Positions 24,630 through 59,916 of a stretch of 64,000 nucleotides of DNA are shown piece after piece. Source of the stretch: Dictyostelium discoideum (Eukaryota); assembly GCA_000004695.1 (NCBI GenBank), contig CM000152.2, forward strand, positions 5,504,001 to 5,568,000. The letters are read 5' to 3'. Both the position numbers and the translations under genes were made by a program. The notes under the pieces are model-generated. The model made no database searches. It was not told where the DNA came from and was given only the letters and a program-made list of their open reading frames with translations. Position 1 is the stretch's first letter; every line of letters starts with the position of its first letter.

Positions 24630-25766
24630 TTATTTTGTAGATGAAGATTTTGTAAATTTTAAAGCATCTAAAAAATTTGACATTGAAATATTATTTATAT
24701 TAATATCATTTCTTAATGCTAATAAAGCAGTTTCTTTACAAAGATTATTAATATCTGCACCATTGAAACCTTGAGTTAATTCTGATAATTGAATGAAATC
24801 TACACTTTCATCCAATGGCATTGATTTAGTTATTTTTTTGAAAATATCTAAACGTGCTTCTTTATTTGGATTTGGTATTTCAATATGATAATCAAATCTA
24901 CCAGGTCTAAGTATTGATGGATCTAATAAATCAATACGAGTTGTTGCTGCTAATACAATTGATTGATTGCTATTATTATTATTGTTGTTGTTACCACTAC
25001 CACCACCACCATAAATACCATCAATTTCAGTTAAAAGACATGATAATAAACGATCAGATGATTGTTCAGAAGAATCATCAAAACCTCTTAATTTTGCTAA
25101 AACTTCCACTTGATCCAAGAATAAAATACAAGGTGAACTTTCACGTAAAGTTTTGAATAATTTTGAAAGGTTTTTTTCACTTGCTCCAACCACTGGATCA
25201 ATGATATCAGTTGATGAGATTGATATGAAATTTATATTTGGCGATGATGATGCAATTGCACGAGCAATTAAACTTTTACCATTTCCAGGTGGTCCATATA
25301 ATAATACTCCACTTGGCGATTTAATACCTAACCTATCCAATACACTCTTATTCAACATTGGTGTTAATATTGATGATTTGATTTTTTCAATTATTTCATC
25401 TAATCCACCAATTTCATTGAACCCATTACCATTACCATTACCACCACCATCTCCATAACCAATGGTTGGTAATTTATATTGATTTAATATCGAGGGTTTT
25501 ACAAGCTCAAATGCTTTATTAAAATCGAATTTTTCAATTAAATTATAATCATGACAATCATTTCTTTTAATATTCACTAAAATAGCTTCTTTACATAAAC
25601 TATTTAAATCTGAACCTACATAACCATGTGTACATTCTCCCAAATATTCTGATAACTCTTTATAATGTATTTCATTATTTTTAAAATTTGGAAATTCTAA
25701 ATTAAAAAAAAAAATTAGTAAATTTGGTTTTAAAAAAAAAAATATAAAATTTAAAAAAAAAAATAA

Positions 25767-25799
<33 letters not shown>

Positions 25800-26592
25800 T
25801 ACTTTTAAATAATAAATATAAAATTTCTTTTCTATCATTTGGTGAAGGTATTGGTAAATTTAAAACTGAATCAAATTTTCCAATTGAAAAGAACGCTGTA
25901 TCTATAGATTCAATTCTTGATGTTACACCAATTACAAATACTGATCTTTTCTTACTATTATTTTCTAATAATGTTAAAAAATTTGAAACTACTCTTTGTT
26001 CAATATCTATAATTTTAATTTAAAACAATTAGAATTTTATTTATTTATTTATTATTTATTATTTATTATTTACATACACCCTAATGAATCATTTCTAATT
26101 TGTGAAATTGAATCAATCTCTTCAAAAACTAAAACAAATGGTGATTGACTACTTGCTGTATTGAATATACTTTCAATTAATTTTTCAGTATCTCCATCAT
26201 CTTTATTTTTTAAAAAAAAAGAGAGAGAGGGGTTAGTTTGAGGGAAAAATAAAAAAAAAATTAAAAAAAAAGAGTTTTAAAATTAATTTATTTTTACCTT
26301 TTTGAAATAGGTTTGATGAATTTATAATTTTATAATTTATTGATAATTTTGTTAAAATTGATTTTATTAATAATGATTTACCAATTCCTGATCTTCCATT
26401 TATTAGTATATTACATGGGTAGAATTGATCATCATTACCATCATCATTAATAATAATATTTCCAATTATATCCAATCCATCTAAATTAAATAAATCATTA
26501 ATTTTATCAACTATAAATGAAATTGTATTACCCAATCCTCCTACATTTTCATTGATCGATTTCTTTATATCTTCTAATTTTATGTTTTTCAT
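24630..26592 (-). CDS. AAA+ ATPase with two tandem AAA domains and no N-domain (Cdc48/AFG2 superfamily). D2 Walker B is naturally D-Q. 4 exons: complement(join(24630..25696,25803..26006,26078..26200,26298..26592))
   Basis: D1 has Walker A 'ILINGRSGIGKSLL' and Walker B 'FVLVFEEIDSI', then '...RVVSNFLTLLEN...VFVIGVTSRIESID'. D2 has Walker A 'GVLLYGPPGNGKSLIARAIA', Walker B 'CILFLDQVEVL' (Q where catalytic E is expected), then 'VLAATTRIDLLDPSILRPGRFD' and 'QGFNGADINNLCKETALLAL'. Introns use GTAAAA, GTATGT and GTATAC donors. The last intron carries a (TGTA)n run. Coordinates near 25800 may be off by 1. Confidence 0.7.
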
Positions 26593-26619: not shown

Positions 26620-26693
<74 letters not shown>

Positions 26694-26764
26694 AAACAAA
26701 AAAGTGAAAAATAAAAAATAAAAATAAAAACACTTTTTTTTTTTGGTTTTGAAATTTTACAGTT

Positions 26765-28147
26765 TTAGGACCTATTATCTCTATCCCTATAGTTATAGTC
26801 TCTATTATTATTACTACTATTACTATTACTATTATTATTATTATTATTATATTTTTTTTTATTATTATAATTTGTATTCCATAATGAATCTTTTTCAGTT
26901 GTATCTTGATCTTTTAAATGAGTATATTTAGTTCTACCTGCTTTACCAAAGTTTTTAACTTGCATTACTTTTGGTAATAGTTCACGATTGAATTTATCTT
27001 CACCAGTTGGTGCAGAGAAATCTTTATTTTTAATATACTCGTCATCTTGAAAGAAAGCACCACGATGGTAATCTCTTTGAAGGAATTTCAATTGTTTCTT
27101 TTGTGAGTTATCAATGTTTGTTCGCGAACGAGATGGATCCTCTTTAAGGATTTGGTCATCGGTCATTGCTCTTCTTCTTGCAAATTCTTTCTTTTCAAAT
27201 TCTGCCAATAGACGAGTATGAATCTCCAATCTAACACGCTCCAATTCTCTTTGAATCCATAATAGTTTTTTACTACCATCTTGATCTTCATCATCGTCAT
27301 ACTCTTCCTCTTCTTTTTGTTCCAATTCTTTAGCTTCTTGCTCTTTTCTATCCCTATCTAATTCATCTTTTAATTTTCTATGAGCTTCGATTTTTCTTTG
27401 TTCTTTCTCTCTCTCCAATTGAGCTTGCTGTTCTTGTTCTTCTTTCTCCCATTGTTCATCAGTTTTAATTGTACCTCTATCATCTTTTTTTATAAATGTT
27501 GGTCTAAATATTGGTGGTTGATCCCAATATTCATCCTCATCATCCTCTTCTGAATCTGTTTCATATTCACTACTACCCTCTTCTTCACTTTCACCTTCAA
27601 TATCTTTAAATGGTTGTTGTTTCTCTTCTAATTCTTTTTGTTTTTGTTCTTCTTCTTCTTTTTTCTTTAAATATCTTTCTTTTGCTCTTCTTCTTCTATC
27701 ATCATCTTCATCATCATCATTATGATCCTTTTTTGTATCATTATTATTATTATTATTATTATCATCATCTTCTTTTATAATCTCTGTTTTTTGTATTCTT
27801 CTTGATGTAGTGGTTGTAGTTGTGGTGGTGGTATCATTATCATTATCATCATCATGATGTCTTCTTCTACTTGCTTTTCTTTCTTCAACAGATTGTGGTT
27901 CATCTTGATTTGAAGACCTATTTTTAAATCTAGCTAATCTCGGATCATTTGTTTCTGCTTCTTTAATTGATTTTTGATTTTGAATATTTGAAAAATGACT
28001 ATCTTGATCATCTTCCGCTTCTGCATAATCTGGTCTTTGACCTGCTCTATATCTAATTACTTTTGTACCACTTGTAACTACTGAATGTCCACCACTACTC
28101 TCTAAATTATTCTTTAATTTATCTCTTATCCTTGATGCAACTGACAT
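26765..28147 (-). CDS. mfap1: Microfibrillar-associated protein 1 (MFAP1/Spp381-type spliceosomal protein)
   Basis: Single 460-aa ORF, basic/acidic-rich. The conserved MFAP1 core is present: '[14 protein letters not shown]', '[20 protein letters not shown]', '[20 protein letters not shown]', '[43 protein letters not shown]'. Confidence 0.85.
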
Positions 28148-57438: not shown

Positions 57439-59916
57439 ATGCCAAATAATGAAAATGAAGATTCAATTGTTTTATTACCATTAGATAGATATACAGTTGG
57501 AATTGACGAGTTTATTGGATTTAATGAATTTTATGATGATTATAAAAATAATAATTTTAATGAAAAAGATTCAATAATAAATGAATTATGTTATATGTCA
57601 ATTCAATTAATGGAAAAGTTATCATTAAAATTAGGAGATTGGATATTTATTGATGTTCAAAAACAACAACAAAAACAACAAAAACAACAACAACAACAAC
57701 AACAAAATAAACAATGTATTATATCAAAAGTTTGGACTTCAAGATATATTCAACAAAATTATTATATTCAATCAAATTCAAAACTAATATTAAACCAACA
57801 AATAAATGATGAAGAACAAGAACAAGAACAAGAACAAGAACAAGAACAACAAGAACAAGAACAAAATAAAAAACAAAACAAATCAATAAAATATCCAAGT
57901 TTTGTCAAAATTTATAAAGTTAATGAATTTGAAAATAATTTAAATAATGTTGATATTGAAATTATAGTTTCAAATAATAATAATAATAATAATAATGAAA
58001 ATATAAGAACATTATTTAGTAGTAAACAATTTATAAAGCAATTATTAATAAATAAATTAATATGTAGTGGAATGAATATATCACTTTATAATAATAATGT
58101 TAATTTAATTATAAAAAATGTAAATAATAATAATAATTTAAAAATTGGTTTAATTAGTCAATCAACAAAAATAAATATAATAATAATAACAAATGAAAGT
58201 TTATCATGTTTATACTCTTCAAATTCATCAAATTTATTAAATTTAAATTATAAAAATAAATTATTTAAAAAATTTAAATTAAATAATAATAATAATTTTA
58301 AAATTGGTGGATTAAATGAACAAATTAAATTATTGGAAGAAATGATGATTTATCCAATTTTATTTCCACAAGTTTTTAAAACTTTAAATATTGATCCACC
58401 AAAAGGAATTTTATTAAAGGGTCCACCAGGTACTGGTAAAACTCATTTAGTTAGGACTGTTTGTGATGCATATGATATTGAGATGATATCAATTGATTGT
58501 GCAAAAATCTCTGGTTCCTATATCGGTGAAACTGAAGAGAATTTAAGAAACATTTTTCAAGAAGCATCAGATAAATCAATTGCAAAATCAAATTCACCAA
58601 TTGTTGTATTCATTGATGAAATCGATACTATTTGTCCACCAAGATCTAAATCCACTCAAAACGAGTCACGTGTTGTTGGCCAATTCTTGACGTTACTAGA
58701 TGGTATTGGTGCTCGTAAAGGTAATTTAATTATAATAGCAGCTACGAATAGACCAAATCAAATCGATAATGCACTTAGAAGACCTGGTCGTTTAGATAGA
58801 GAAATTGAGATACCAGTACCAAACAAACAACAACGTTTAGACATTCTAAAATTATATTGTTCAAAATTACCAATCTCACCAACTCCTTCCAATTTATTAG
58901 ATCAAATAGCTGATGAAACCGTTGGTTATGTTGGTGCAAATATTCAATTCCTTTGTAGAGATTCTGCATTTATTGCATTTTCAAAATATAATTTATTAAA
59001 GTATCAAAATAATGAACAAAATGAAAATGAAAATGAAAAAAAATACCTTATTGAAATTGAAGATTTTAGAGAATCAATTAAAAATAATCCAGCATCAATT
59101 TTAAAAGGTGAACATTTAGTTGAGAATATTAGTAATGTAAGTTGGGATGATATAGGTGGTTTGGATGATATAAAAGAAGAATTGAGACAAGCTATAGAAT
59201 GGCCAAATCTTTACAAGGAGTCATTTGAAAAGTTTGGATTATCACCACCAAAAGGTATCATTTTGTATGGTCCACCAGGTTGTTCAAAAACTACACTGGT
59301 CAAAGCAGTGGCATCAAGTTCGAAATTATCATTTCTATCACTAAGTGGTGCAACTATTTTTTCACCTTATTTAGGTGACTCTGAACAAACAATTAGGGAT
59401 ATTTTTAAAAAGGCCAGACAAACAACTCCATCAATACTATTTTTCGATGAAATTGATGCAATTGTTTCAAAAAGAAATCTTTCAGATAATTCTAGTGGTG
59501 ATAATGCACAGTCAAGAGTGTTGTCAACATTTTTAAATGAAATGGATGGTGTTGAACAATTGAATGGTGTAATTGTAATTGGTGCAACCAATAGATTAGA
59601 TATGATCGATAATGCATTACTCAGACCTGGAAGATTCGATAAAATATTGGAAATCAAATTACCAGATCAATTATCAAGATTAAAAATTTTAAAAATTAAA
59701 ACAAAATCAATACCACTCTCAGATAATGTTAATTTAATTGAAATCTCAAATTTAACAAATGGTTTCAGTGGTGCTGATCTTGAAAATCTGTGTAGAGAAG
59801 CTTCATTTCAATCTTTAAGAAGAGATTTATTAAATGGTTTTGTTGAAATGTATGATTTTTTAAATTGTTTATCAAAAATTAATAATCAATCAAAAAATTT
59901 AGAAAATAAAATCTAA
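57439..59916 (+). CDS. Cdc48-family type II AAA ATPase with an N-domain and two canonical AAA domains (AFG2/SPATA5-like)
   Basis: Single 825-aa ORF. D1 has '[19 protein letters not shown]' and 'VVFIDEIDTICPPR', then 'IIIAATNRPNQIDNALRRPGRLDREIEIPVPN'. D2 has 'GIILYGPPGCSKTTLVKAVA' and 'ILFFDEIDAIVSKR', then 'VIGATNRLDMIDNALLRPGRFDKILEIKLP'. The N-terminal region of about 300 aa contains poly-Q and poly-N inserts. Confidence 0.75.
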   Translation: MPNNENEDSIVLLPLDRYTVGIDEFIGFNEFYDDYKNNNFNEKDSIINELCYMSIQLMEKLSLKLGDWIFIDVQKQQQKQQKQQQQQQQNKQCIISKVWTSRYIQQNYYIQSNSKLILNQQINDEEQEQEQEQEQEQQEQEQNKKQNKSIKYPSFVKIYKVNEFENNLNNVDIEIIVSNNNNNNNNENIRTLFSSKQFIKQLLINKLICSGMNISLYNNNVNLIIKNVNNNNNLKIGLISQSTKINIIIITNESLSCLYSSNSSNLLNLNYKNKLFKKFKLNNNNNFKIGGLNEQIKLLEEMMIYPILFPQVFKTLNIDPPKGILLKGPPGTGKTHLVRTVCDAYDIEMISIDCAKISGSYIGETEENLRNIFQEASDKSIAKSNSPIVVFIDEIDTICPPRSKSTQNESRVVGQFLTLLDGIGARKGNLIIIAATNRPNQIDNALRRPGRLDREIEIPVPNKQQRLDILKLYCSKLPISPTPSNLLDQIADETVGYVGANIQFLCRDSAFIAFSKYNLLKYQNNEQNENENEKKYLIEIEDFRESIKNNPASILKGEHLVENISNVSWDDIGGLDDIKEELRQAIEWPNLYKESFEKFGLSPPKGIILYGPPGCSKTTLVKAVASSSKLSFLSLSGATIFSPYLGDSEQTIRDIFKKARQTTPSILFFDEIDAIVSKRNLSDNSSGDNAQSRVLSTFLNEMDGVEQLNGVIVIGATNRLDMIDNALLRPGRFDKILEIKLPDQLSRLKILKIKTKSIPLSDNVNLIEISNLTNGFSGADLENLCREASFQSLRRDLLNGFVEMYDFLNCLSKINNQSKNLENKI

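What the first reader, a model, noticed from the sequence alone, without database searches (positions are those of the whole stretch)
24630..26592. Short tandem-AAA ATPase whose second domain has a natural Walker B Glu->Gln, near a canonical AFG2-like ATPase
The 562-aa protein is essentially two AAA cassettes with about 30 residues of N-terminus. D1 looks catalytically competent (GIGKS, EEID). D2 has a normal P-loop (GPPGNGKS) but reads 'FLDQVE' where the Walker B motif hhhhDE normally sits. This is the same substitution used experimentally to trap substrate-bound AAA proteins. About 31 kb away, at 57439-59916, is a full-length AFG2/SPATA5-like Cdc48-family ATPase. In animals AFG2A and the shorter AFG2B work as a heteromer. 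This short protein could be the AFG2B-like partner, but that is speculative.
Basis: partly seen in the sequence, partly recalled or inferred. Interest (0 to 1): 0.5.

Follow-up and report, generated by a model that had tools for sequence, protein, structure and literature searches.

The report
Ancient AAA ATPase with hydrolysis-dead ring

Summary
A four-exon gene on the minus strand (24630-26592) encodes a 562-aa tandem AAA protein with no N-domain. Its D2 Walker B reads LFLDQVE, with Gln403 at the catalytic-Glu column.

This is not a sequencing variant. The Gln is invariant in every dictyostelid orthologue with an intact D2, in about 50 orthologues from Mucoromycota and Mortierellomycota, and in two environmental sequences. 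It is absent from 210 of 210 other Cdc48-family D2 domains sampled. dN/dS against D. firmibasis is 0.086 overall and 0.039 for D2.

The family also shares a non-aromatic D2 pore loop and an acidic D1 pore loop. It is monophyletic (100% for D1+D2, 88% for D1, 96% for D2). It does not group with AFG2B/SPATA5L1 (25% or less). It probably corresponds to the long-branch "Cdc48-like" group of Kienle et al. 2016.

Most likely mechanism (inferred): D2 binds ATP without hydrolysing it and acts as a locked assembly ring, as in NSF D2. D1 is the only possible motor, and in dictyostelids it is partly degenerate too.

The parts
24630..26592 (-). Whole gene, ATG to TAA: 4 exons, 562 aa, tandem AAA (D1-D2) protein with no N-domain
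   Evidence: gene model; 2x PF00004 + 2x PF17862; exon structure conserved in D. firmibasis; dN/dS 0.086; AF2 model of the 98%-identical P0001: pLDDT 83, pTM 0.74
26298..26592 (-). Exon 1 (aa 1-98 plus 1 nt): 16-aa N-terminal tail, D1 start (VGGL, aa 17-20), D1 Walker A GRSGIGKS (aa 66-73, window 26374-26397)
26078..26200 (-). Exon 2: acidic, non-aromatic D1 pore loop QKDDGDTE (aa 97-104, spans intron 1) and D1 Walker B LVFEEID (aa 122-128, window 26112-26132; Asp replaced by Glu, catalytic Glu126 kept)
25803..26006 (-). Exon 3: D1 sensor-1 GVTSR (aa 166-170, Asn replaced by Ser) and degenerate D1 Arg-finger region FFSIGKFD (aa 178-185, window 25870-25893; canonical LRRPGRFD)
24630..25696 (-). 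Exon 4: D1 lid, D1-D2 linker, all of D2 and the stop codon
25272..25295 (-). D2 Walker A GPPGNGKS (aa 342-349), intact; Gly/Lys invariant across the family
25176..25199 (-). D2 pore loop 1 DPVVGASE (aa 374-381): Val where 206 of 210 other family D2 domains have Trp, Tyr or Phe
25104..25124 (-). D2 Walker B LFLDQVE (aa 399-405); Gln403 = CAA at 25110-25112, at the catalytic-Glu column
24936..24950 (-). D2 sensor-1 AATTR (aa 457-461): Asn replaced by Thr in dictyostelids (fungal members keep Asn)
24891..24914 (-). D2 second region of homology ILRPGRFD (aa 469-476): both Arg fingers intact and invariant across the family
57439..59916 (+). Context only, not part of the feature: single-exon 825-aa Cdc48-family ATPase with a 288-aa N-terminal region and canonical motifs. 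It is the Spaf-like / SPATA5L1 (AFG2B)-type orthologue.
   Evidence: 96% bootstrap; family HMMs

Best explanation
The gene encodes the Dictyostelium member of a distinct, ancient and functionally uncharacterised lineage of the Cdc48 superfamily. I call it the 'DQ family'; it probably corresponds to the 'Cdc48-like' long-branch group of Kienle et al. 2016. It is found in dictyostelids, in Mucoromycota and Mortierellomycota, and in some environmental eukaryote-like sequences. Three invariant features define it: Gln in place of the catalytic Glu in the D2 Walker B motif, a non-aromatic D2 pore loop ([ST/D][KP][VI][VI]G), and an acidic, non-aromatic D1 pore loop. Shown: the motif states, their conservation, the clade's monophyly, and strong purifying selection that is strongest on D2. 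Inferred mechanism: D2 keeps everything needed to bind Mg-ATP and to contact the neighbouring subunit (Walker A Lys, Walker B Asp, both Arg fingers) but lacks the catalytic base. In dictyostelids it also lacks the sensor-1 Asn. D2 would therefore sit in a long-lived ATP-bound state and serve as a locked assembly or regulatory ring, as NSF D2 and Pex1/Pex6 D1 do, rather than as the motor ring it is in Cdc48, p97 and Afg2. D1, whose Walker A Lys and catalytic Glu are invariant across the family, is the only ring that could hydrolyse ATP. It looks competent in the fungal members. In dictyostelids it is weakened (Walker B Asp replaced by Glu, first Arg finger lost, second one Lys or Arg). With no aromatic pore-loop residue in either ring and no N-domain, the protein is unlikely to be a processive threading unfoldase of the Cdc48 type.
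For: Gene and motifs. Gln is conserved in all dictyostelid orthologues with an intact D2, in Rhizomucor, Benniella, Mortierella and two environmental sequences, and in all 45 of 47 newly found fungal orthologues with an intact D2 Walker B region; the other two are defective gene models. Outside the clade, 209 of 210 D2 domains have Glu and 0 have Gln; 206 of 210 have an aromatic D2 pore-loop residue. Clade monophyly: 100% (Kimura NJ, 99 taxa); 100%, 88% and 96% for D1+D2, D1 only and D2 only (Scoredist NJ, 113 taxa). D2 scores best against an HMM of the non-dictyostelid clade members. There is a clear score gap between fungal orthologues (453 bits or more) and archaeal Cdc48 (389 or less). Invariant columns across 29 family members include D2 G338/G341/G343/K344, D398, Q399, R461 and R464, and D1 G69/G71/K72 and E126 (P0001 numbering). 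dN/dS is 0.086 overall, 0.13 for D1 and 0.039 for D2. The AF2 model is confident and matches the D1-D2 modules of p97, Cdc48, Drg1 and NVL at TM about 0.7. That Walker B E-to-Q mutants bind ATP but do not hydrolyse it is standard for this superfamily and is restated for SPATA5/SPATA5L1 in PMC12019325. NSF D2 and Pex1/Pex6 D1 as non-hydrolysing rings is my own knowledge of the field.
Against: No biochemical data exist for any family member, so ATP binding without hydrolysis in D2 is inferred from motifs alone. A neighbouring acidic residue or slow hydrolysis cannot be excluded. The oligomeric state is unknown. All trees are distance-based (NJ), and the clade has long branches, so long-branch attraction could inflate support. 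The shared rare motif states and the agreement between D1 and D2 argue against this. The clade's position within the superfamily is unresolved. Its identity with Kienle's 'Cdc48-like' group could not be checked, because no accession lists were available. The taxonomic range is a lower bound, because the non-dictyostelid members scored close to the list cut-off of the representative search.
Confidence: 0.6

Rival explanations
1. One reading: the 562-aa protein is the AFG2B (SPATA5L1)-like subunit that co-assembles with the nearby AFG2-like ATPase in a 55LCC-like heterohexamer.
For: Human AFG2B is the best-scoring eukaryotic PDB hit by summed score (320 bits). Both proteins have an insertion after the D2 'DG' motif and a Pro before the D2 pore loop. 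With archaeal rooting, the DQ clade attaches next to Spaf-like in the NJ tree.
Against: DQ + Spaf-like gets 23.5-25%, 0% and 2% bootstrap. D1 alone ranks AFG2B below VAT, Afg2, p97 and AFG2A, and Spaf-like is the second-lowest-scoring family HMM for D1. The 825-aa neighbour is itself the AFG2B-type protein. D. discoideum, and the genus Cunninghamella (different species), have both a DQ member and a Spaf-like protein, so the two are distinct paralogues. Human AFG2B keeps both catalytic Glu residues and needs its N-domain to bind AFG2A. The family is absent from animals in my sampling.
Confidence: 0.06
2. The protein does not act as a homohexamer. It co-assembles as a non-catalytic, non-gripping subunit into mixed hexamers with another Cdc48-family ATPase (Cdc48, Spaf or the Spaf-like 825-aa protein). 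Its intact D2 Arg fingers would activate a neighbour's site while its own site stays ATP-locked.
For: The D2 Arg fingers are invariant although its own D2 site lacks the catalytic base. Dictyostelid D1 has lost its trans-acting Arg finger while keeping its own Walker A and catalytic Glu, which is the asymmetric pattern seen in heteromeric AAA rings. Heterohexamers are known within this superfamily: Pex1/Pex6 (own knowledge) and SPATA5/SPATA5L1 at 4:2.
Against: There is no interaction evidence and no conserved linkage to any partner gene. Invariant Arg fingers are equally expected in a homohexameric ATP-locked ring. Fungal members have a fully canonical D1, which fits a self-sufficient homohexamer.
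Confidence: 0.2
3. It is a conventional homohexameric unfoldase in which D2 still hydrolyses ATP slowly, with Gln or a nearby acidic residue substituting, and the unusual pore loops simply reflect a specialised substrate.
For: D2 is the most constrained part of the protein (dN/dS 0.039). In dictyostelids the Walker B +3 position is Glu (DQVE).
Against: E-to-Q at this position abolishes or strongly reduces hydrolysis in SPATA5, SPATA5L1 and most AAA+ proteins (PMC12019325 and PMC11055677). Dictyostelid D2 also lacks the sensor-1 Asn. Fungal members have the ordinary DQID, so there is no family-wide compensating residue. Neither ring has an aromatic pore-loop residue.
Confidence: 0.1
4. It is a sequencing or assembly artefact, or a decaying pseudogene.
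For: Nothing beyond the unusual motifs.
Against: The same Gln occurs in about 64 independent sequences from many genomes. The ORF is intact with canonical splice sites conserved between species, and dN/dS is 0.086.
Confidence: 0.01

Closest known systems
Cdc48 / p97 / archaeal VAT (type II classical-clade AAA unfoldases)
   Same: The same D1-D2 tandem of AAA + AAA_lid_3 modules. These are the best sequence hits (VAT 358 bits, p97 and Cdc48 about 290) and fold matches at TM about 0.7. The D2 Walker A, Walker B Asp and Arg fingers are canonical.
   Different: No N-domain. The D2 catalytic Glu is Gln, whereas D2 is the main motor in Cdc48 and p97. Both pore loops lack an aromatic or large hydrophobic residue. 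Dictyostelid D1 has lost an Arg finger. The protein ends ...KSSSTK, with no C-terminal HbYX-type tail.
'Cdc48-like' group of Kienle, Kloepper and Fasshauer 2016 (PMC5070193)
   Same: They describe diverged, long-branch double-ring AAA proteins in amoebozoa, basal fungi, heterokonts and a few green algae, but not in animals. That matches the distribution and branch lengths found here. Their Table S1 lists two 'Cdc48' entries for D. discoideum.
   Different: The authors could not exclude a long-branch artefact and did not describe the Walker B Gln or the pore-loop signature. I could not confirm that their sequences are the same ones. I did not recover named heterokont or green-algal members.
AFG2B / SPATA5L1 ('Spaf-like'), subunit of human 55LCC
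   Same: Same superfamily. Non-aromatic D1 pore loop, a Pro before the D2 pore loop, and an insertion after the D2 'DG' motif. N-domain loss is also reported for plant Spaf-like proteins.
   Different: Different clade. AFG2B keeps catalytic Glu in both rings (E304, E565), an aromatic D2 pore loop (SPFVGDSE) and an N-domain required for complex formation. The window's own AFG2B-type gene is the 825-aa ORF at 57439-59916.
NSF D2 and Pex1/Pex6 D1 rings (non-hydrolysing rings of type II AAA proteins); degenerate sites of heterodimeric ABC transporters
   Same: This is a comparison of how it works, not of membership. One nucleotide site keeps its binding residues but lacks the catalytic base, and holds ATP as a structural or assembly element while the other site does the work (my own knowledge of these systems).
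   Different: These are separate lineages and the degeneration arose independently. Here the change is precisely the E-to-Q used experimentally, and the Arg fingers are retained, which is not the case in NSF D2. No biochemistry exists for this family.

Membership tests
Cdc48 superfamily (classical-clade type II AAA, D1-D2) | Two tandem AAA cassettes, each with a C-terminal AAA_lid_3 helical subdomain | tested here: met
   Pfam PF00004 x2 (E 1.5e-58) and PF17862 x2; cassette envelopes 17-275 and 303-558; AF2 model pLDDT 83; Foldseek matches to p97, Cdc48, Drg1 and NVL at TM about 0.7
Cdc48 superfamily (classical-clade type II AAA, D1-D2) | Second region of homology with two Arg fingers in each ring | tested here: inconclusive
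   D2 ILRPGRFD is canonical. D1 FFSIGKFD has lost the first Arg and has Lys at the second. Fungal relatives keep both.
Cdc48 superfamily (classical-clade type II AAA, D1-D2) | N-terminal substrate- or adaptor-binding domain | tested here: not met
   Only 16 residues precede D1. There is no room for an upstream exon. Dictyostelid and Mucoromycota orthologues are also short. Mortierellomycota have an N-extension of about 260 aa with no Pfam match.
AFG2B / SPATA5L1 (Spaf-like) | Groups with AFG2B orthologues in a phylogeny of D1+D2 | tested here: not met
   DQ + Spaf-like bipartition 23.5-25% (D1+D2), 0% (D1), 2% (D2). Leave-one-out HMM scores: D1 159 bits vs Spaf-like (second-lowest; NVL 140); D2 265 vs 296 for its own clade.
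AFG2B / SPATA5L1 (Spaf-like) | Signature pore loops (D1 G[SP]x.GE[ST]E; D2 SP[YF].GDSE) and D2 P-loop GPPGC[SAC]KT | tested here: not met
   The 562-aa protein has QKDDGDTE, DPVVGASE and GPPGNGKS. The 825-aa neighbour has GSYIGETE, SPYLGDSE and GPPGCSKT, which fit.
AFG2B / SPATA5L1 (Spaf-like) | Catalytic Walker B Glu in both D1 and D2 (human E304, E565) | tested here: not met
   D2 has Gln403. The human residues are from PMC12019325.
AFG2B / SPATA5L1 (Spaf-like) | N-domain that mediates association with AFG2A and with C1orf109-CINP | tested here: not met
   No N-domain. The requirement in the human complex is from PMC11055677.
AFG2B / SPATA5L1 (Spaf-like) | Physical heterohexamer with the AFG2A-type subunit | not testable with these tools
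   Needs co-purification or AP-MS.
'DQ family' (proposed here; probably Kienle's 'Cdc48-like') | Monophyly with the fungal and environmental members in both domains | tested here: met
   100%; 100%, 88% and 96% for D1+D2, D1 and D2
'DQ family' (proposed here; probably Kienle's 'Cdc48-like') | Gln at the D2 Walker B catalytic position | tested here: met
   LFLDQVE. All about 64 family sequences have [DN]Q; outside the family 0 of 210 do.
'DQ family' (proposed here; probably Kienle's 'Cdc48-like') | Non-aromatic D2 pore loop and acidic, non-aromatic D1 pore loop | tested here: met
   DPVVGASE and QKDDGDTE; fungal members have SK[VI][VI]GESE and QT[DNE]xGASE.
'DQ family' (proposed here; probably Kienle's 'Cdc48-like') | Identity with the sequences that Kienle et al. 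called Cdc48-like | not testable with these tools
   The paper and the supplements held give no accession list. Only the taxonomic distribution and Table S1 counts are comparable.
Type II AAA proteins with one non-hydrolysing assembly ring (NSF-D2-like function) | The degenerate ring binds ATP stably, does not hydrolyse it, and supports hexamerisation | not testable with these tools
   Only the sequence prerequisites are shown: Walker A Lys, Walker B Asp and Arg fingers are invariant and the catalytic base is absent.

The most novel reading that the evidence does not exclude
The DQ family is a ninth, genuine eukaryotic member of the Cdc48 family, dating at least to the common ancestor of Amoebozoa and fungi. 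It would have been selected for more than a billion years to hold ATP in D2 without hydrolysing it and to present acidic, non-gripping pore loops. On this reading it is not an unfoldase. It would be either a natural 'substrate-trap' or holdase ring for basic clients, or a regulatory subunit that co-assembles with and slows Cdc48, Spaf or Spaf-like hexamers.
Probability: 0.15. Interest if true: 0.75.

Novelty: new variant of a known kind. Interest (0 to 1): 0.5.

Why it matters
Walker B E-to-Q is the standard laboratory mutation for freezing AAA+ machines in the ATP-bound, substrate-engaged state. Here evolution has fixed that exact change in the ring that is normally the motor of Cdc48-type enzymes. 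It has held it, together with intact ATP-binding and Arg-finger residues, across dictyostelids and two fungal phyla under strong purifying selection. This turns a vaguely defined 'long-branch' group into a family with clear diagnostic motifs. It also argues that the group is real and not a tree artefact. Two genetically tractable hosts, Dictyostelium and Mucor/Mortierella, are available to ask what a permanently ATP-loaded, non-gripping Cdc48-like ring does. As a by-product, the analysis shows that a unicellular amoeba encodes an AFG2B/SPATA5L1-type protein, contrary to a recent statement that single-celled organisms lack it. That bears on how the 55LCC ribosome-maturation complex evolved.

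Tried and rejected
1. Raw PDB score ranking could not assign orthology. Summed two-domain scores put archaeal VAT first for both window proteins, and AFG2A, AFG2B, Cdc48 and p97 fell within about 30 bits of each other.

Neither window protein is in the exact-sequence collection, so I obtained no public names or gene IDs.

3. A mixed dictyostelid + fungal profile (A3) in the search for homologous proteins became too generic and returned mostly archaeal Cdc48. Searching with the fungal member P0253 worked.

4. Pfam found nothing in the N-terminal extensions of the Mortierellomycota and P0220 members, or in the N-terminal 290 aa of the 825-aa protein.

5. The Foldseek PDB search does not separate subfamilies; p97, NVL, Drg1 and Cdc48 all match equally.

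6. Literature searches for CDC48B, 'Cdc48-like' and natural Walker B Gln found no functional work on this family.

7. I first considered the shared D2 insertion and the name of the Tieghemostelium orthologue (taken from Arabidopsis CDC48B, Q9ZPR1) as support for AFG2B affinity. I dropped this after the trees and family HMMs disagreed.

8. Synteny offers no functional clue. The MFAP1-AAA-cobW order is conserved only among close relatives.

9. The position of the DQ clade within the superfamily could not be resolved with distance methods. No ML software was available.
Full report
**1. What is in the sequence**

The window is about 22% G+C and has poly-Asn tracts. The best database hits are Dictyostelium discoideum proteins (96% BLAST identity; 98% in the alignment).

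On the minus strand between 26592 and 24630, four exons join through GT..AG introns of 97, 71 and 106 nt into a 1689-nt CDS encoding 562 aa. The exons are 26592-26298, 26200-26078, 26006-25803 and 25696-24630. The same exon structure projected onto the D. firmibasis locus translates exactly to that species' annotated protein.

Pfam finds two AAA domains and two AAA_lid_3 domains. A single-cassette HMM places D1 at residues 17-275 and D2 at 303-558. There is therefore no N-domain, and the DNA leaves no room for one. About 170 nt, mostly a poly(T) run, separates the ATG from the stop of the upstream gene. That gene is an MFAP1 homologue. Some public gene models wrongly fuse the two genes (P0273, P0274).

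**2. The motifs**

Residue-level alignments to VAT and to human AFG2B, and alignment of all cassettes to one HMM, give the following for D2:
- Walker A: GPPGNGKS
- Pore loop 1: DPVVGASE
- Walker B: LFLDQVE
- Sensor-1: AATTR
- Arg fingers: ILRPGRFD

Gln403 (CAA, window 25110-25112) sits at the catalytic-Glu column. The sensor-1 Asn is Thr, and the pore-loop aromatic residue is Val.

- Walker A: GRSGIGKS
- Pore loop: QKDDGDTE
- Walker B: LVFEEID. The Mg-binding Asp is Glu, and the catalytic Glu126 is present.
- Sensor-1: GVTSR
- Arg-finger region: FFSIGKFD, where canonical proteins have LRRPGRFD.

**3. Is the Gln real and more than chance?**

Every dictyostelid orthologue with an intact D2 has LFLDQ[VI]E. 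These come from D. discoideum strains, D. citrinum, D. firmibasis, D. dimigraforme, D. purpureum, Tieghemostelium, Cavenderia, Acytostelium and Synstelium.

An exhaustive HMMER search of 1.84 billion cluster representatives with the dictyostelid profile recovered four non-dictyostelid proteins with the same features:
- Rhizomucor pusillus (P0192)
- Benniella/Mortierella (P0253, with cluster member P0269)
- Two environmental sequences: P0182, and P0220, which has NQ

A follow-up search with P0253 found 47 further orthologues across Mortierellomycota and Mucoromycota. A clean score gap (453 to 389 bits) separates them from archaeal Cdc48. All 45 of these with an intact D2 Walker B region read LFIDQ[IL][DE]; the other two are defective gene models.

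Among 210 two-cassette Cdc48-family proteins outside this clade, 209 have Glu and none has Gln at this column. At the D2 pore-loop position, 206 of 210 have Trp, Tyr or Phe.

dN/dS between the window gene and D. firmibasis is 0.086 overall, 0.13 for D1 and 0.039 for D2. The 'dead' ring is the most constrained part of the protein.

**4. Which family is it?**

Raw scores do not decide this. I cut D1 and D2 from 224 proteins, aligned them to one HMM and built NJ trees with bootstrap.

| Grouping | Kimura, 99 taxa, 200 replicates | Scoredist, 113 taxa, 100 replicates: D1+D2 / D1 / D2 |
|---|---|---|
| Dictyostelid + fungal + environmental 'DQ' sequences form one clade | 100% | 100% / 88% / 96% |
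| DQ clade joined to the AFG2B/Spaf-like clade | 23.5% | 25% / 0% / 2% |

The clade is roughly equidistant from Spaf, Spaf-like, NVL, eukaryotic Cdc48 and archaeal Cdc48.

Leave-one-out family HMMs agree. The protein's D2 scores 296 bits against the non-dictyostelid DQ members and at most 267 against any other family. Its D1 has its second-lowest score against Spaf-like (159; NVL is lowest at 140).

The AF2 model is confident (pLDDT 83, pTM 0.74). It resembles the D1-D2 modules of p97, NVL, Drg1 and Cdc48 equally well.

The distribution (amoebozoa and early-diverging fungi, not animals) and the long branches match the 'Cdc48-like' group that Kienle et al. 2016 noticed. They could not distinguish that group from a long-branch artefact. 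Their Table S1 lists two 'Cdc48', one Spaf and one Spaf-like gene for D. discoideum. I could not verify sequence identity with their set. The shared rare motif states found here argue that the group is a real family.

**5. The neighbouring gene**

The 825-aa single-exon ORF at 57439-59916 has canonical motifs. It groups with human AFG2B and with the Nematostella, Trichoplax and Cunninghamella proteins at 96% bootstrap.

Against the family HMMs it scores 350 bits for Spaf-like and 310 for Spaf in D2, and 284 against 278 in D1. This is the same pattern as human AFG2B. True Spaf controls (human AFG2A, Acytostelium P0451) prefer Spaf by 70-90 bits.

It also carries the AFG2B pore-loop signatures GSYIGETE and SPYLGDSE. 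It is therefore the AFG2B/SPATA5L1-type gene, and a separate Spaf gene exists in dictyostelids (P0451). This agrees with Kienle 2016. It disagrees with the statement in bioRxiv 10.1101/2025.11.07.687187 that single-celled organisms lack SPATA5L1.

The 31-kb spacing has no evident meaning. The local neighbourhood is conserved in D. firmibasis but not in D. purpureum, and neither species has another AAA gene within 10 kb. The 31-kb distance itself is beyond the 10-kb flank I could fetch.

**6. Mechanism**

Shown:
- D2 retains the Walker A Gly/Lys, the Walker B Asp and both Arg fingers as invariant columns across 29 family members, along with the invariant Gln.
- D1 retains an invariant Walker A Lys and catalytic Glu.
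- Fungal members have a fully canonical D1 (DE Walker B, RSGRLD).
- Dictyostelids have Glu-Glu in the D1 Walker B and have lost the first Arg finger.

Inferred: D2 binds Mg-ATP and contacts its neighbour but cannot activate water. It would behave like an engineered E-to-Q ring. Those mutants bind ATP but do not hydrolyse it in SPATA5, SPATA5L1 and most AAA+ proteins (PMC12019325 and PMC11055677). A long-lived ATP-bound D2 ring would provide assembly or regulation, as in NSF D2 or Pex1/Pex6 D1 (my own knowledge). D1 would be the only possible motor, which reverses the division of labour seen in Cdc48, p97 and Afg2.

Neither ring has an aromatic pore-loop residue, and the D1 loop is acidic. Classical hand-over-hand threading is therefore unlikely. 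I put about 0.6 on this overall picture. Family membership and motif conservation are near certain, and the functional reading is moderate.

**7. Rivals**

The phylogeny, the missing N-domain that human SPATA5L1 needs to bind SPATA5, and the identity of the neighbour all count against it.
- **Non-catalytic subunit of mixed hexamers with another Cdc48-family ATPase, about 0.2.** I cannot exclude this. The retained D2 Arg fingers and the lost D1 Arg finger in dictyostelids would fit it.
- **Slow but real D2 hydrolysis in an ordinary unfoldase, about 0.1.**
- **Artefact or pseudogene, about 0.01.** This is refuted.

**8. Limits**

The trees are distance-based only, because no ML software was available. 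The clade has long branches, and its deep position is unresolved. Its taxonomic range is a lower bound, because the non-dictyostelid members scored just above the list cut-off. There are no expression, interaction or biochemical data.

**9. Verdict**

I rate it a new variant of a known kind (a type II AAA protein with one non-hydrolysing ring) in an uncharacterised family, with interest 0.5.

Noticed in passing
window 57439-59916 (+): The 825-aa single-exon AAA ATPase is the Spaf-like / SPATA5L1 (AFG2B)-type orthologue, not AFG2A (96% NJ bootstrap, family HMMs, pore loops GSYIGETE and SPYLGDSE). A unicellular amoeba therefore has an AFG2B-type gene. This agrees with Kienle 2016 Table S1 and contradicts the statement in bioRxiv 10.1101/2025.11.07.687187 that single-celled organisms lack SPATA5L1. 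I did not check whether C1orf109 or CINP homologues exist in Dictyostelium.
   Followed up: partly
window 26765-28147 (-), and proteins P0273, P0274, P0121, P0127, P0039: The upstream neighbour is an MFAP1 (PF06991) homologue. Several public gene models are wrong. P0273 and P0274 (D. cf. discoideum) fuse MFAP1 to the AAA gene. P0121 (Acytostelium, 2073 aa) and P0127 (Synstelium, 4827 aa) are larger fusions. P0039 (Heterostelium) lacks the stretch carrying the D2 Walker A and B motifs.
   Followed up: partly
proteins P0474 (733 aa, ENA metagenome) and P0478 (737 aa, Chloroflexi MAG): Two prokaryotic tandem AAA proteins also read IFFDQL[DE] at a D2 Walker B-like position, which suggests an independent natural Glu-to-Gln change outside the eukaryotic DQ family.
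   Followed up: no
window ~26620-26740: An uninterrupted poly(T) run of about 120 nt (as read on the minus strand) fills most of the intergenic space between the MFAP1 stop codon and the AAA gene's ATG. A 2-codon mini-ORF (ATG AAA TGA) overlaps the real start codon.
   Followed up: no
L001 (D. firmibasis) and L002 (D. purpureum): The gene order MFAP1 - AAA - cobW-like is conserved between the window and D. firmibasis. In D. purpureum it is replaced by KBP_C - AAA - O-methyltransferase.
   Followed up: yes
proteins P0122 (1019 aa) and P0272 (1007 aa): These are Cdc48-like proteins of unidentified origin with three consecutive canonical AAA cassettes instead of two (P0272 is an ENA metagenome sequence). 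They score high only because the cassette scores add up.
   Followed up: no
Mortierellomycota members (e.g. P0253 residues 1-260) and P0220 residues 1-260: Some DQ-family members carry an N-terminal extension of about 260 aa with no Pfam match, while Mucoromycota and dictyostelid members lack it. It is unresolved whether this is a divergent Cdc48-type N-domain that was lost twice.
   Followed up: partly
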